A DNA stretch of 64,000 bases, from assembly GCF_009914755.1 (NCBI RefSeq), contig NC_060927.1, one strand, 5' to 3'. Each line of letters begins with the position of its first letter. Within the stretch, counting starts at the first letter, position 1. The notes below the pieces were generated by a model that searched no databases, had not been told where the DNA came from, and saw only the letters and a list, made by a program, of their open reading frames with translations. Position numbers and translations under genes: made by a program. The stretch comes from the human T2T-CHM13v2.0 reference genome, Homo sapiens. This document shows positions 1 to 58,661 of this stretch, in pieces.

Positions 1-463
1 GCACACATATGTTTATTGCAGCACTATTCACAATAGCAAAGACTTGGAACCAACCCAAATGTCCAACAATGATAGAGTGGATTTAGAAAATATGGCACAT
101 ATACACCATGGAATACTATGCAGCCATAAAAAAGGATGAGTTCCTTGTCCTTTGTAGGGACATGGATGAAGCTGGAAACCATCATTCTTAGCAAACTATC
201 ACAAGGACAAAAAACCAAACACCGCATGTTCTCACTCATAGGTAGAAATTGAACAATGAGAACACATGGACACAGGAAGGGGAACATCACACACCAGGGC
301 CCGTTGTGGGAGGAGGGGAGTGGGGAGGGATAACATTAGGAGATATACCTAATGTTAAATGACGAGTTAATGGGTGCAGGACACCAACATGGACATGTAT
401 ACATATGTAACTAACCTGCACGTTGTGCACATGTACCCTAAAACTGAAAGTATTAAAAAAAAA
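1..463 (+). mobile_element. LINE-1 3' end (L1PA4-like), truncated by window start
   Basis: ORF2 C-terminus, G-rich 3'UTR (CCTAATGTTAAATGACGAGTTAATGGG...CCAACATGG) and A tail at 455-463. Confidence 0.93.
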
Positions 464-2542
464 TTATTCTGTGTGTTTTTTTCTCTTTTTTACTTTATAT
501 TCTAAATTTCCTTTAATTATAAAAGGTTTATTTTAAAAAAAAACGGTGATAATAAGTAAGCAAAACTGCCCACTTCCCTCCTCACGTTATCCACTAAGGA
601 ATGCCTCCAAAGAAAACACTATAGACGTGAGAGAGGAAGTGTGCATTAAGGGGGAGTCCATGCTGAGGACTAGAAGGAAATGAGGGGGCCAAGTCTTCAG
701 GCCAGGCTCAGGCTTAGTCAGCACACTCAGAGCAGATCTCTTGGGAGAAAATGGGGTGGATTCACCTGAATCAGCTTCCAGAAACTGACAAGAAATTCAC
801 ATGCCCCCCAGTTGACGATGGAATTGTTACCGCCTTTGGACAAGGATGCTTTTGTTGATATGACCAGTGTATTCTCTGATGCATTCCCAACCTGATGTTT
901 GTTCAGTTCCTGCAGAGCCAGGCAAAACTCACTCCGACTGCCTTTGGCATCCACCTCCACAGGATGGATGTACTGTCTCTATTAAAAGTGCTTGGCATGG
1001 TAACTTTGGGTTAAAGACAATTAGGTGGAAACTAGTCTTGTGAAATGGAGATCTCCATAAAACTTGAGAGGGTAGAACAAACAAGGAGCAAATATAGAGA
1101 GTCAAATCCATAAACCTTGAGGCCATTTAATTTCTAGATCAACATTTATTCTTCTATCCTATGTACCTTCTGCCCTCCTCCTTTGTAATTTCTTCAGACC
1201 CAACCTTCCAGGCCCCTCATGTAAAAATATTTCTCTGCTTTTCCTGAGATGGTCAGTGCTGGTCACCACCTTGCAATATAAGGGTCAGCTTTCCCCCGCT
1301 TTGGGTTTGTACAAGAAATCATTCATTTATCAATGTCTGTGGAGCCCCTATTATATATGTCTGAGGTCCTGGTTAGGGTAAATGTCATCACATATCCATA
1401 CAAATAACATCCATTTATCAACAAAAAAAAAGACTTTCCAACCCTCATCTCAACAGGACACCTGATATACGAATTTACTGTGTAGTTAGAACTGCCATCT
1501 TTAGCCCTTCTAATGTGGTTCTAGACCCAGACGTGGTATCATGTTGCTACTGATGAGGGCTAGTCTTAACTGATGCCCTTGAATTGAGACTGGGGTGACA
1601 TATAATGCATTCATAGAAATTAGCAATGGCTATCCTAGTCCTCAAGAGAAATTTAGATAAGCTGTATTTTGTGCATTGATATGTATCAGACTCCTGTGAC
1701 ACTGGAAGTTTTATTTTGCCTGGATAAGGTTACTGAACAAGTAGCATCTCAGTTTGAGACACTAAGATTGCCAGTGGGTGACGAGCACTGTGGACATGAG
1801 CCATCTGTGCTGTGGAGTGTGGCTAGTGTCTCCCATAGCAGTCTCTCTTGTCTGCCTGTCATTAGGTGACCTTGAGGCTGTGCAAAGTGAGTTATGCAGC
1901 CTCTCCCTGATTAAATGCATCCTGTCTCTCTCACATTGTAAAAATAATTGTGGACTTTATGTTCCACCCAGGATTATAATTCCTCAATGCCATATGTTTG
2001 TGTTGACATAAACAGTCTTCCCCGAAATTTGGCACAAGCCTGACCACGTGCTGATTGGGAACAAGACTTCTTAGAGATCGCCAAGAAATCAATTCATTCT
2101 TCAGCCTTGGTCACATAACTAAATTTGAGTTTAGTGCCCTAATATTTAGATGGGTACCTCTGTGATCTTGTTAAAGACATTTGTTTGCACGGAAAGTGCT
2201 ACACACTTTATCTATGTGTTTTACTGGACTTTGTTTTTTTTTTTTTTAAATGTCACCAGAATATATCACTTAGATCTCCAGTCTCCTTTATGTTCTAAGC
2301 TGTAGCATTTTTTCACTTTCAACATGATATTTGATGCAAGATTTTCTTATTACCTCCACTTTTGAAAAATGATATAACGTAAGAGGAAATTGCATAGGAG
2401 GTGGAGAAGCCCATCTGTAGAAATGCTGATAGCTTCATTGTACATTAGTGTTGACTCGTGAATGAAAAGGAAAAACTCAGCTCTGGAATGCCTAAGTCCT
2501 AAAGTTTTTCATACAGTAGAGCTCTGTGAAGCACCAACCCAG

Positions 2543-55085: not shown

Positions 55086-58000
55086 TCTATTCAGAGATTC
55101 AACTTCTTCCTGGTTTAGTCTTGGGAGGGTGTATGTGTCGAGGAATTTATCCATTTCTTCTAGATTTTCTAGTTTATTTGCGTAGAGGTGTTTATAGTAT
55201 TCTCTGATGGTAGTTTGTATTTCTGTGGGATTGGTGGTGATATCCCCTTTATCATTTTTTATTGCGTCTATTTGATTCTTCTCTCTTTTCTTCTTTATTA
55301 GTCTTGCTAGCCGTCTATCAATTTTGTTGATCCTTTCAAAAAACCAGCTCCTGAATTCATTAATTTTTTGAAGGGTTTTTTGTGTCTCTATTTCCTTCAG
55401 TTCTGCTCTGATTTTAGTTATTTCATGCCTTCTGCTAGCTTTTGAATGTGTTTGCTCTTGCTTTTCTAGTTCTTTTAATTGTGATGTTAGGGTGTCCATT
55501 TTGGATCTTTCCTGCTTTCTCTTGTGGGCATTTAGTGCTATAAATTTCCCTCTACACACTGCTTTGAATGTGTCCCAGAGATTCTGGTATGTTGTGTCTT
55601 TGTTCTTGTTGGTTTCAAAGAGCATCTTTATTTCTGTCTTCATTTCGTTATGTACCCAGTAGTCATTCAGGAGCAGGTTGTTCAGTTTCCATGTAGTAGT
55701 CATTCAGGAGCAGGTTGTTCAGTTTCCATGTAGTTGAGCGGTTTTGAGTGAGTTTCTTAATCCTGAGTTCTAGTTTGATTGCACTGTGGTCTGAGAGACA
55801 GTTTGTTATACTTTCTGTTCTTTTACATTTGCTGAGGAGAGCTTTACTTCCAACTATGTGGTCAATTTTTGAATAGGTGTGGTGTGGTGCTGAAAAAAAT
55901 GTATATTCTGTTGATTTGGGGTGGAGAGTTCTGTAGATGTCTATTAGGTCCACTTGGTGCAGGCTCTGAAATTGTGGCAATAATCAATAGCTTACCAACC
56001 AAAAAGAGTCCAGGACAAAATGGATTCACAGCCGAATTCTACCAGAGGTACAAGGAGGAACTGGTACCATTCCTTCTGAAACTATTCCAATCAGTAGAAA
56101 AAGAGGGAATCCTCCCTAACTCATTTTATGAGGCCAGCATCATCCTGATACCAAACCCGGGCAGAGACACAACCAAAAAAGAATTTTAGACCAATATCCT
56201 TGATGAAAATTGATGCAAAAATCCTCAATAAAATACTGGCAAACTGAATCCAGCAGCACATCAAAAAGCTTATCCACCATGATCAAGTAGGCTTCATCCC
56301 TGTGATGCAAGGCTGGTTCAATATATGCAAATCAATAAATGTAATCCAGCATATAAACAGAACCAAAGACAAAAACCACAGGATTATCTCAATAGATGCA
56401 GAAAAGGCCTTTGAAAAAATTCAACAACTCTTCATGCTGAAAACTCTCAATAAATTAGATATTGATGGGACGTATCTCAAAATAATAAGAGCTATCTATG
56501 ACAAACCCACAGCCAATATCATACTGAATGGGCAAAAACTGGAAGCATTCCCTCTGAAAACTGGCATAAGACAGGGATGCCCTCTCTCACCACTCCTATT
56601 CAACATAGTGTTGGAAGTTCTGGCCAGGGCAATTAGCCAGGAGAAGGAAATAAAGGGTATTCAATTAGGAAAAGAGGAAGTCAAATTGTCCCTGTTTGCA
56701 GACGACATGATTGTATATCTAGAAAACCCCATTGTCTCAGCCCAAAATCTCCTTAAGCTGATAAGCAACTTCAGCAAAGTGTCAGGATACAAAATCAATG
56801 TACAAAAATCACAAGCATTCTTATACACCAATAACAGACAAACAGAGAGCCAAATCATGAGTGAACTCCCGTTCACAGTTGTTTCAAAGAGAATAAAATA
56901 CCTAGGAATCCAACTAACAACGGACGTGAAGGACCTCTTCAAGGAGAACTACAAACCACTGCTCAATGAAATAAAAGAGGATACAAAGAAATGGAAGAGC
57001 ATTCCATGCTCATGGGTAGGAAGAATCAACATCATAAAAATGGCCATACTGCCCAAGGTAATTTATAGATTCAATGCCATCCCTATCAAGCTACCAGTGA
57101 CTTTCTTCACAGAATTGGAAGAAAACTACTTTAAAGTTCATATGGAACCAAAAAAGAGGCGGCATTGCCAAGTCAATCCTAAGCCAAAAGAACAAAGCTG
57201 GAGGCATCACACTACCTGACTTCAAACTATACTACAAGGCTACAGTAACCAAAACAGCATGGTACTGGTATCAAAACAGAGACATAGATCAATGGAACAC
57301 AACAGAGCCCTCAGAAATAATGCCACATATCTACAACTATCTGATCTTTGACAAACCTGAGAAAAACAAGCAATGGGGAAAGGATTCCCTATTTAATAAA
57401 TGGTGCTGGGAAAACTGGCTAGCCATATGTAGAAAGCTGAAACTGGATCCTTTCCTTACACCTTATACAAAAATTAATTCAAGATGGATTACAGACTTAA
57501 ACGTTAGACCTAAAACCATAAAAACCCTAGAAGAAAACCTAGGCATTACTATTCAGGACATAGGCATGGGCAAGGACTTCATGTCTAAAACACCAAAAGC
57601 AATGGCAACAAAAGCCAAAATTGACAAATGGGATCTAATGAAACTAAAGAGCTTCTGCACAGCAAAAGAAACTACCATCAGAGTGAACAGGCCACCTACA
57701 AAATGGGAGAAAATTTTTGCAACCTACTCATCTGACAAAGGGCTAATATCCAGAATTTTCAGTGAACTCAAACAAATTTACAAGAAAAAAACAAACAACC
57801 CCATCAACAAGTGGGCGAAGGATATGAACAGACACTTCTCAAAAGAAGACATTTATGCAGCCAAAAGACACATGAAAAAATGCTCATCATCACTGGCCAT
57901 CAGAGAAATGCAAATCAAAACCACAATGAGATACCATCTCACACCAGTTAGAATGGCAATCATTAAAAAGTCTGGAAACAACAGGTGCTGGAGAGGATGT

Positions 58001-58661
58001 GGAGAAATAGGAACACTTTTACACTGTTGGTGGGACTGTAAACTAGTTCAACCATTGTGGAAGTGGGTGTGGTGATTCCTCAGGGATCTAGAACTGGAAA
58101 TACCATTTGACCCAGCCATCCCATTACTGGGTATATACCCAGAGGATTATAAATCATGCTGCTATAAAGACACATGCACACGTATGTTTGTTGTGGCACT
58201 ATTCACAATAGCAAAGACTTGGAACCAACCCAAATGTCCAACAATGATAGAGTGGATTAAGAAAATGTGGCACATATACACCATGGAATACTATGCAGCC
58301 ATAAAAAAGGATGAGTTCATGTCCTTTGTAGGGACATGGATGAAATTGGAAATCATCATTCTCAGTAAACTATCGCACAGACAAAAAACCAAACACCGCA
58401 TGTTCTCACTCATAGGTGGGAATTGAACAATGAGAACACATGGACACAGGAAGGGGAACATTACACTCTGGGGACTGTTATGGGGTGGGGGGAGGGGGGA
58501 GGGATAGCATTAGGAGATATACCTAATGCTAAATGACAAGTTAATGGGTGCAGCACACCAGCATGGCACATGTATACATATGTAACAAACCTGCACATTG
58601 TGCACATGTACCCTAAAACTTAAAGTATAATAATAAAATTTAAAAAATTAAAAAAAAGAAA
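55086..58661 (+). mobile_element. L1PA3-like, 5'-truncated and 5'-inverted (twin priming)
   Basis: Minus-strand ORF2 piece 55086-55962; plus strand from 55960 through RT (FADD), 3'UTR and poly(A); TSD AAGAAATCAAAACC at 55072-55085 and 58662-58675. Confidence 0.96.
55658..55734. repeat. Perfect 37-bp tandem duplication inside L1
   Basis: AGTAGTCATTCAGGAGCAGGTTGTTCAGTTTCCATGT x2. Confidence 0.95.

What the first reader, a model, noticed from the sequence alone, without database searches (positions are those of the whole stretch)
1..58661. Five neighbouring, independently inserted L1s share rare substitutions: candidate local gene-conversion network
Copies: E=1-463, A=7607-9474, D=11244-11732, B=17464-23617, C=55086-58661. 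SEEN: B and C share CAACTaACAAcGGACG (21876+21881 / 56916+56921; QLTTDV where A has QLTRDV), AAAATgGACA (20506 / 55497; KMDT for KIDT) and TGGAACAcAAC (22258 / 57300). A, B and C share CAGGCcACC (9431 / 22651 / 57693; NRPPT for NRQPT). A and B share TGTGGgACAT (8009 / 23226) and CTTTcACACT (8260 / 22974). D and B share CCAAgCCAAA (11318 / 23184). E and C share GATAGAgTGG (77 / 58252). E and B share GTGGGaggaGGGGAG (311-314 / 23440-23443). A-D each have a distinct TSD and the 3'UTRs point to different subfamilies (PA2/PA3/PA4). KNOWLEDGE: these sites are non-CpG and differ from the L1PA consensus as I recall it; non-allelic conversion is known for segmental duplications, LTRs and nearby Alus. 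INFERENCE: the sharing pattern fits no single tree (AB, BC, BD, BE, CE, ABC) and flanking subfamily sites are kept. This points to many short conversion tracts between direct and inverted L1s 12-58 kb apart, with the full-length copy as hub.
Basis: partly seen in the sequence, partly recalled or inferred. Interest (0 to 1): 0.8.

Follow-up and report, generated by a model that had tools for sequence, protein, structure and literature searches.

The report
Neighbouring L1 copies share rare substitutions
Independently inserted L1 retrotransposon copies in one intron of human MYRIP share substitutions that are rare or absent in other L1 copies, most likely because nearby copies exchanged short patches of DNA, and other neighbouring L1 pairs elsewhere in the genome show the same pattern.

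Summary
TSDs, truncation points and orientations show the copies are independent insertions.

Most cited alleles are rare: 0-2 carriers among about 55 background L1 copies from chr1. Two multi-base variants are found in L1 only in this window. The B+C doublet has no other L1 hit genome-wide. The B+E triplet 18-mer has two hits, E and B.

Rare variants shared with full-length copy B:
- C shares 5 (null maximum 4 of 25 copies).
- A shares 4 (null maximum 2 of 33).
- E shares 9 (null maximum 6 of 10).
- The sum is 18, against a null mean of 3.96.

Pairs without B are at chance. The D-B and E-C alleles are not rare (3 of 54 each).

The effect is general. In the unselected chr1 sample, 14 neighbour pairs (140 kb or less) share exclusive variants at 0.69/kb, against 0.10/kb for 1,627 distant pairs (p=1.3e-4). 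Carriers of the same rare alleles also cluster elsewhere.

Best reading: short-patch non-allelic gene conversion, confidence 0.7. No long tracts were found and polarity is untested. It is a typical example of a known process.

The parts
1..463 (+). Copy E: the 3' end of a 4.0-kb 5'-truncated L1 that starts outside the window (chr3:39986478). It belongs to the older subfamily group, with B.
   Evidence: 94.2% identical to B over 3982 bp and 38 of 45 group markers. The 3' flank is not homologous to B's.
7594..9487 (-). Copy A with its TSDs (7594-7606 and 9475-9487). It is a minus-strand L1 whose 3' part is 7610-8528 and whose inverted 5' part is 8530-9474. Younger group.
   Evidence: TSD GTAAGGAAAGTTT, exact on both sides.
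11231..11745 (+). Copy D (11241-11732), a short 3' end with a degenerate 13-bp TSD. It shares no rare variant.
   Evidence: Its only allele shared with B (23184G) is 3/54 in the background.
17450..23631 (+). Copy B, a full-length L1 (17464-23617) with TSD AAAAAGAACTTTTA. Older group. It is a partner in all supported sharing.
   Evidence: It has 76 private non-CpG-transition variants in 3.6 kb, 15 of them shared with A, C or E.
55072..58675 (+). Copy C with TSD AAGAAATCAAAACC. Its inverted 5' segment is 55088-55965 and its direct body is 55960-58667. Younger group.
63606..64000 (+). Copy F, an L1 3' part cut by the right window edge. It shares no rare variant.
21876..21881 (+). B+C doublet (T>A at 21876 and G>C at 21881; partner sites 56916 and 56921 in C).
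   Evidence: Its 16-mer has 3 genome hits of 1501 for the degenerate context. The third hit is not an L1. The form relaxed for CpG decay has 2 hits, B and C.
23440..23462 (+). B+E cluster (23440A, 23441G, 23443A and 23462A; partner sites 311-314 and 333 in E).
   Evidence: The 18-mer has 2 genome hits, E and B. The 16-mer core has 7 hits, no more than the reversed-pattern control, which also gave 7.
22651..22651 (+). A>C shared by A (9431), B and C (57693).
   Evidence: 98 of 15,047 genome copies with the same 20-mer context carry C (0.65%).
20506..20506 (+). T>G shared by B, C (55497, inverted segment) and E (outside the window at chr3:39987369).
   Evidence: 147 genome hits and 1/39 in the background.
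22258..22258 (+). G>C shared by B and C (57300).
   Evidence: 212 genome hits for the 18-mer with R at one flank position. 2/57 in the background. The identical run around it is only 14 bp.
22974..23226 (+). Two sites shared by A and B: 22974 T>C (8260 in A) and 23226 C>G (8009 in A).
   Evidence: 221 and 85 genome hits. 0/55 and 0/54 in the background.

Best explanation
After they inserted, L1 copies lying 8-32 kb from the full-length copy B exchanged short patches with it by non-allelic (ectopic) gene conversion. The patches are a few bases to at most about 150 bp. A break or gap in one copy was repaired using a nearby, imperfectly matching copy in either orientation. Heteroduplex repair then carried single private variants, or tight clusters of them, across while leaving the flanking subfamily markers untouched.

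Shown here: the copies are independent insertions, the shared alleles are rare, sharing exceeds matched controls, it crosses subfamilies, and sharing falls with distance in an unselected sample.

Inferred: the mechanism, the direction and the timing. The exchanges were probably old, made when the copies were more alike.
For: 1. Independent insertions. TSDs, truncation points and inversions differ, and the one flank pair tested within the window (E v B, 3' flanks) is not homologous.

2. No dispersed lineage. The B+C doublet occurs in no other L1: 2 L1 hits among 1501 context matches, and 2 of 2 when relaxed for CpG decay. The B+E 18-mer has 2 hits genome-wide. The carriers of the nine E-B variants in the background are all different copies.

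3. Excess over matched controls.
- C shares 5 rare variants with B, against 0-4 in 25 younger-group copies.
- A shares 4, against 0-2 in 33 copies limited to A's span.
- E shares 9, against 1-6 in 10 older-group copies.
- The sum is 18, against a mean of 3.96 and a maximum of 12 in 8,010 control triplets.
- All 5 B-C sites are transversions. Five or more shared transversions occur in 1 of 622 control pairs.

4. B-C and B-A sharing crosses subfamilies. C carries 6/45 and A 3/26 of B's group markers.

5. Unselected test. Among the 59 chr1 copies, 14 neighbour pairs (140 kb or less, with one 0.3%-diverged duplicate pair dropped) share exclusive variants at 0.69/kb, against 0.10/kb in 1,627 distant pairs (one-sided Mann-Whitney p=1.3e-4). 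Counts fall with distance: 5 at 6 kb, 12 at 18.5 kb, 1 at 20 kb, 4 at 32 kb, 1 at 62 kb, and 0-1 at 78 kb or more. The three high pairs have non-homologous flanks or different truncations.

6. The same rare alleles cluster elsewhere.
- 22651C: 10 pairs within 100 kb (7 outside the window), against 0.3-1.1 expected.
- 23226G: 5 pairs (4 outside), against 0.23-0.8 expected.
- 20506G: 10 pairs outside the window among the first 100 of 147 hits, against 0.6-2.0 expected.
- Eight such pairs had non-homologous 3' flanks and were 5-9% diverged.
- One pair (L070/L071) has a 168-bp identical run holding three rare shared variants (p=5e-4).

7. Published precedent. Distance-dependent conversion among neighbouring Alus is cited in passages of PMC6598467 and PMC8230782. 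A conversion between L1PA3 copies is reported in passages of PMC5829575. Short-template, distance-dependent ectopic conversion genome-wide is described in preprint 10.64898/2026.08.26.747289 (abstract, section 9 and search passages read).
Against: - No window pair has an identity run longer than chance: B-C longest 118 bp (p=0.14) and B-A 84 bp (p=0.58).
- The runs holding the shared sites are 11-145 bp, so each 'tract' is inferred from one to three sites.
- Polarity and timing are untested because no ape orthologues were available.
- The background is small: 59 copies, chr1 only, anchored on one CpG-bearing 16-mer. It also contains neighbour pairs itself.
- The control distributions have heavy tails. 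Five or more shared variants occur in 10 of 622 older-younger control pairs, and 9 or more in 9 of 150 older-older pairs, some of them duplicates.
- E and B are the same subfamily, and their nine shared sites are spread evenly over 3.5 kb, as common descent would also give.
- 20506G travels with 20526G in two other clusters, which hints at a minor lineage for that one site.
- The 15 shared sites as listed do not look GC-biased; no test was run.
Confidence: 0.7

Rival explanations
1. Common descent from a rare source. The sharing copies are siblings, or parent and daughter, carrying the private variants of one source element, and they happen to lie close together. This is most plausible for E and B.
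For: E and B are in the same subfamily group (38/45 markers). Their 5.3% divergence is lower than that of any B-versus-older-group comparison. Their 9 shared rare sites are spread evenly over 3.5 kb. 20506G and 20526G occur together in two other clusters.
Against: It cannot explain B-C or B-A, which lack B's group markers. The B+E and B+C multi-base variants have no other L1 carrier in the genome. The 'lineage' would then have two members landing 17-32 kb apart, and L1 is not known to reinsert locally (recalled knowledge). No background copy carries two of the nine E-B variants at separate sites; one copy (L021) carries the adjacent 23440/23441 pair.
Confidence: 0.12
2. Parallel mutation. The same sites mutated independently in neighbouring copies, either by chance or because the sites are hot spots.
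For: Each single-site allele recurs across the genome at roughly the level expected for one specific substitution. For example, 22651C is at 0.65%. Control pairs often share 1-4 'rare' alleles. The D-B and E-C alleles are common enough (3/54) for this explanation.
Against: The doublet and the triplet are found only in the neighbours. Sharing with B is about 4.5 times the control mean. Sharing depends on distance in the unselected sample. Carriers cluster at about 5-30 times expectation. A hot spot would not know which copies are neighbours.
Confidence: 0.08
3. Another local process, such as reinsertion close to the source element, exchange at the cDNA stage, or cross-talk during assembly and polishing.
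For: The tests show proximity-dependent sharing. They do not show the molecular route. No tract structure was seen in the window.
Against: Copies 93-94% identical with unique flanks should not cross-map in a long-read assembly (inference). Reinsertion fails for cross-subfamily pairs. No such process is described for L1 in the papers read.
Confidence: 0.05

Closest known systems
Sequence homogenisation of neighbouring Alu elements by non-allelic gene conversion (Aleshin and Zhi 2010). The paper itself is not held; it was seen only as cited in passages of PMC6598467 and PMC8230782.
   Same: Independently inserted dispersed repeats share non-diagnostic variants more often when they are close together. 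The effect is read as short conversion tracts.
   Different: That work concerns 300-bp Alus, with an effect said to act within about 10 kb. Here the elements are L1PA copies of 0.5-6 kb, 6-7% diverged, with gaps of 8-32 kb in the window and sharing detectable up to about 35-100 kb in the samples.
Single conversion events between L1 copies seen in long reads (PMC5829575, passages read: 'conversion between L1PA3 LINEs', and L1PA7-flanked inversion with conversion).
   Same: L1 copies act as donor and acceptor in gene conversion in humans.
   Different: Those are recent events seen as rearranged reads with visible tracts. Here there are only fixed single-site or few-site footprints between older copies.
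Genome-wide ectopic gene conversion with short templates and distance decay (preprint 10.64898/2026.08.26.747289; abstract, section 9 and search passages read).
   Same: Short identical flanks of 17-91 bp are enough. The signal is stronger within a chromosome and at short distance. It 'extends along every chromosome'.
   Different: That study uses population variants and de novo mutations at k-mer pairs, and it names no repeat family in the text searched (0 hits for Alu, L1PA, retrotransposon). Here the signal is fixed differences between annotated L1 copies in one assembly.
Interlocus gene conversion in segmental duplications and among LTRs (Trombetta 2016 as cited in a passage of PMC6598467; work on segmental duplications is recalled only).
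   Same: Non-reciprocal copying between paralogues produces shared derived alleles and trees that conflict.
   Different: Those substrates are long and more than 95-99% identical, with clear tracts. The window's copies are 92-95% identical, and their longest shared run is 118 bp.

Membership tests
Non-allelic gene conversion between dispersed repeats | The partners are paralogous copies that arose independently, not duplicates of one insertion. | tested here: met
   TSDs, truncation points and orientations differ. The 3' flanks of E and B are not homologous.
Non-allelic gene conversion between dispersed repeats | The shared derived alleles are not diagnostic of a dispersed subfamily. | tested here: met
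   The B+C doublet and the B+E 18-mer have no other L1 carrier. Other alleles are 0-2 of about 55 in the background and 85-221 hits genome-wide. Exceptions: the D-B and E-C alleles are 3/54.
Non-allelic gene conversion between dispersed repeats | Sharing exceeds that of distant pairs and falls with distance. | tested here: met
   18 shared variants against a control mean of 3.96; 0.69/kb against 0.10/kb, p=1.3e-4, with decay from 6 kb to 78 kb or more. Clustering is also seen.
Non-allelic gene conversion between dispersed repeats | Contiguous tracts of raised identity bounded by unconverted sequence. | tested here: not met
   No window pair has a run beyond chance, and the runs at shared sites are 11-145 bp. 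The feature is met in one pair elsewhere (L070/L071, 168 bp, p=5e-4).
Non-allelic gene conversion between dispersed repeats | Polarity: orthologues in other species show the donor state before the acceptor state. | not testable with these tools
   The genome held has no relatives (header).
Non-allelic gene conversion between dispersed repeats | GC-biased outcome. | not tested
   No test was run. The 15 shared sites, as listed, include weak-to-strong, strong-to-weak and neutral changes with no obvious excess by eye.
Minor L1 source lineage | The variants are linked to each other in several copies scattered over the genome. | tested here: not met
   No background copy carries two of the E-B or B-C variants at separate sites; one copy (L021) carries the adjacent 23440/23441 pair. 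The multi-base variants are confined to the window. Partial exception: 20506G occurs with 20526G in two other clusters.
Segmental duplication of one L1 | Homologous flanks and shared insertion structure. | tested here: not met
   for the window. for pairs elsewhere. One true duplicate pair in the background (L051/L052, 0.3% diverged) was recognised and dropped.

The most novel reading that the evidence does not exclude
L1PA copies exchange patches of 100 bp or less with any other L1 within tens of kilobases, often enough to have three consequences.
- A sizeable share of an element's 'private' substitutions are really borrowed. Here 15 of B's 76 are shared with A, C or E.
- The range (at least 35 kb, perhaps 100 kb) exceeds the roughly 10 kb reported for Alus.
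- The borrowed changes are enriched for transversions and tight multi-base clusters, which would point to a particular repair route.

This would bias L1 ages, subfamily trees and mutation-rate estimates taken from L1 remnants.
Probability: 0.4. Interest if true: 0.6.

Novelty: new member of a known kind. Interest (0 to 1): 0.4.

Why it matters
L1 remnants are widely used as neutral clocks, for subfamily dating and for measuring context-dependent mutation rates. All of these uses assume that each copy evolves alone after insertion. If neighbours trade patches, some 'private' changes are counted twice, and ages of clustered copies are skewed. Variants in L1-rich introns such as this one can also recur by copying rather than by new mutation. 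The window adds a clear, checkable example. The chr1 sample gives a first rough size for the effect in L1: about seven-fold more exclusive sharing within 140 kb.

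Tried and rejected
- Segmental duplication was rejected on TSDs, structure and flanks.
- The third genome hit of the B+C 16-mer (chr17) was fetched and is not an L1.
- A search for long conversion tracts by longest identical run found nothing beyond chance in window pairs.
- E-B divergence in 300-bp windows is evenly a little below that of other older-group copies, with no homogenised block.
- L021 seemed to carry the B+E core variant in the projected alignment. It is not among the 7 genome hits of the 16-mer, so the projection probably hides an indel there.
- Naming the subfamilies (PA2 to PA5) was not possible because no L1 reference library was on hand. Only two groups, defined by 46 markers, are reported.
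Smaller fetches were used instead.
- The Aleshin and Zhi paper is not held.
- Six literature searches found no genome-wide study of variant sharing between neighbouring L1 copies. Only listings, abstracts and the passages named were read.

Full report
**What is in the window**

The window is an intron of MYRIP on chr3 of T2T-CHM13.

| Copy | Window place | Identity to B |
|---|---|---|
| E | 1-445 | 94.8% |
| A, minus-strand 3' part | 7634-8528 | 93.0% |
| A, inverted 5' part | 8530-9474 | 94.7% |
| D | 11241-11710 | 91.9% |
| C, inverted 5' segments | 55088-55965 | 94.9-96.4% |
| C, direct body | 55960-58621 | 93.0% |
| F | 63606-64000 | 93.9% |

Two older L1 fragments lie at 11733-12508 and 14248-14571.

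E is really a 4.0-kb 5'-truncated element that starts 3.5 kb left of the window (chr3:39986478). It is 94.2% identical to B over 3982 bp.

The TSDs all differ:
- A: GTAAGGAAAGTTT at 7594 and 9475.
- B: AAAAAGAACTTTTA at 17450 and 23618.
- C: AAGAAATCAAAACC at 55072 and 58662.
- D: a 13-bp pair with two mismatches at 11231 and 11733.

With their different truncation points, inversions and orientations, these are independent insertions. The 3' flanks of E and B are not homologous.

**The observation**

To judge rarity I fetched 59 L1 3' halves from chr1. They are the first 59 usable places of a pattern search anchored on a degenerate 16-mer, so they were chosen without regard to the alleles in question. 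One listed place (163468381), 1.6 kb from another, was left out. I projected them onto B's coordinates.

The sample falls into two groups. A younger majority group is about 2.3% from its own majority base. An older group is defined by 46 markers carried by B and by about a third of the sample. A, C, D and F are in the younger group. B and E are in the older one. I could not attach L1PA numbers to these groups.

| Site in B | Allele | Carriers |
|---|---|---|
| 21876 | A | 1/59 |
| 21881 | C | 2/59 |
| 20506 | G | 1/39 |
| 22258 | C | 2/57 |
| 22651 | C | 1/57 |
| 23226 | G | 0/54 |
| 22974 | C | 0/55 |
| 23440-23443 | cluster | 1-4/52 |
| 23184 (D-B) | G | 3/54 |
| 23207 (E-C) | G | 3/54 |

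The last two are therefore not rare.

**Genome-wide counts**

- The degenerate context of the B+C doublet has 1501 hits. The exact B/C form has 3, and the third hit, on chr17, is not an L1. A form relaxed for CpG decay has 2 hits, B and C.
- The B+E 18-mer has 2 hits, E and B. Its 16-mer core has 7 hits, no more than the reversed-pattern control, which also gave 7.
- 22651C is carried by 98 of 15,047 copies with the same 20-mer context, or 0.65%.
- The other alleles have 85 hits (23226G), 221 (22974C), 212 (22258C) and 147 (20506G).
- The 20506G list also shows the allele in E's body just outside the window.

**Is the sharing more than chance?**

I counted sites where two copies share a non-majority base carried by at most two background copies. 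CpG transitions were excluded.

With B, copy C shares 5 such sites in 3509 bp, A shares 4 in 1830 bp, and E shares 9 in 3575 bp. Matched controls give lower counts:

| Copy | Shared with B | Control range | Control copies |
|---|---|---|---|
| C | 5 | 0-4 | 25 younger-group copies |
| A | 4 | 0-2 | 33 copies limited to A's span |
| E | 9 | 1-6 | 10 older-group copies under 7% diverged |

The observed sum is 18, at 15 distinct sites. The control mean is 3.96 and the maximum is 12 in 8,010 triplets.

All five B-C sites are transversions. Five or more shared transversions occur in 1 of 622 older-younger control pairs.

Results against the claim:
- For all substitution types, five or more shared sites occur in 10 of 622 such pairs.
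- Nine or more occur in 9 of 150 older-older pairs, some of which are duplicates.
- Pairs without B are at chance. A-C and E-C each have one site beyond those also in B. D and F share nothing.

The 'network' is therefore a star around B. B overlaps every other copy and has the most private variants, 76 by this definition.

**Tract structure**

No window pair has an identical run longer than expected from its divergence. The longest are 118 bp for B-C (p=0.14), 84 bp for B-A (p=0.58) and 43 bp for B-E.

The runs that hold the shared sites are 11-145 bp. The run around 22258 is only 14 bp. Subfamily markers a few bases to tens of bases away are kept.

Any exchange was therefore in very short or patchy tracts. 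The tracts may also have been overwritten since.

**The same thing elsewhere**

The lists of carriers of the rare alleles are visibly clumped.

| Allele | Pairs within 100 kb | Outside the window | Expected |
|---|---|---|---|
| 22651C | 10 | 7 | 0.3 (uniform) to 1.1 |
| 23226G | 5 | 4 | 0.23-0.8 |
| 20506G (first 100 of 147 hits) | 13 | 10 | 0.6-2.0 |

The upper expectation allows for uneven L1 density with a pair-based factor of 3.5, counted by hand from the list. A scripted census of the first 50 Mb of chr1 gave 49 pairs, against about 20 by my own uniform estimate.

I fetched 8 such pairs for the first two alleles. Their 3' flanks are not homologous, they are 5-9% diverged, and they share further rare variants. 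One pair (L070/L071, 14 kb apart) has a 168-bp identical run holding three of them (p=5e-4).

Five 20506G pairs are 2.5-11.8% diverged. At least two of them differ in structure. Flanks were not checked for these five.

**An unselected test**

The chr1 background was chosen blind to sharing and happens to contain 15 neighbour pairs (140 kb or less). One pair (L051/L052, 0.3% diverged) is a duplicate and was dropped.

The other 14 pairs share variants carried by no other sampled copy at 0.69/kb. The 1,627 distant pairs share them at 0.10/kb (one-sided Mann-Whitney p=1.3e-4).

The counts fall with distance: 5 at 6 kb, 12 at 18.5 kb, 1 at 20 kb, 4 at 32 kb, 1 at 62 kb, and 0-1 from 78 kb on.

The three high pairs have non-homologous flanks or different truncation points. 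Their shared sites are scattered singles and doublets in short runs, just as in the window.

The window's densities are 1.4-2.5 per kb at the looser threshold. That is ordinary for L1 pairs this close.

**Interpretation**

Proximity-dependent sharing of otherwise private variants between independent copies, crossing subfamily boundaries, is what non-allelic gene conversion predicts.

- Parallel mutation cannot know which copies are neighbours. It also cannot make a doublet and a triplet twice.
- A dispersed minor lineage is excluded for the multi-base variants and is not seen in the sample.
- For E and B alone, common descent remains possible. They are in the same group, they are the closest pair, and their shared sites are evenly spread. 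But the 'lineage' would have only these two members, 17 kb apart.

I put short-patch conversion at 0.7.

**Known or new**

- Neighbour homogenisation is described for Alus within about 10 kb (Aleshin and Zhi 2010, seen only through passages of PMC6598467 and PMC8230782).
- Single L1-L1 conversions are reported from long reads (PMC5829575, passages).
- A 2026 preprint shows genome-wide ectopic conversion with 17-91-bp templates and decay with distance (10.64898/2026.08.26.747289; abstract, section 9 and search passages read). It names no repeat family in the text searched.
- Six searches found no genome-wide L1 analogue.

The window is thus a new example of a known process. What may be new is the size and reach of the effect in L1.

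One loose end remains. Neighbour-shared variants are rich in transversions: 17 of 21 in the chr1 pairs, against 52% of singletons (p=0.007). In the window the figure is 9 of 15, which is not significant.

Noticed in passing
L001-L059 (chr1 sample): In an unselected sample, L1 pairs within about 35 kb share 1-12 variants found in no other sampled copy, while distant pairs share almost none. The effect seen in the window is therefore general.
   Followed up: partly
window sites 21876/21881 and 23440-23443: Variants shared by neighbours are mostly transversions (17 of 21 in the chr1 pairs, against 52% of singletons). They often come as doublets 1-7 bp apart. No explanation was found.
   Followed up: partly
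outside the window: chr3:40172008 (-) and chr3:40255320 (-): Further L1 copies 118 kb and 201 kb to the right of the window carry the 20506G and 22258C alleles respectively.
   Followed up: no
chr3:67.18 Mb, chr3:88.95 Mb, chr5:16.57 Mb, chr6:57.11 Mb: Four pairs of 20506G carriers lie 17.8-19.2 kb apart. Several are near centromeres. The near-constant spacing may be chance or may reflect a duplicated structure. Only two of the four were sampled.
   Followed up: partly
L075/L076 and L079/L080: 20506G occurs together with 20526G in two separate clusters. This suggests a small L1 lineage carrying both, so this one site may be partly lineage-borne.
   Followed up: no
L051/L052, chr1:144.64-144.67 Mb: Two L1 copies 29 kb apart differ by 0.3%. 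They are a recent duplication, not independent insertions, and were dropped from the distance test.
   Followed up: yes
window 11733-12508 and 14248-14571: Older L1 fragments, 76% and 85% identical to B. D sits directly against the first.
   Followed up: no
It shares no rare variant in the 395 bp visible.
   Followed up: partly
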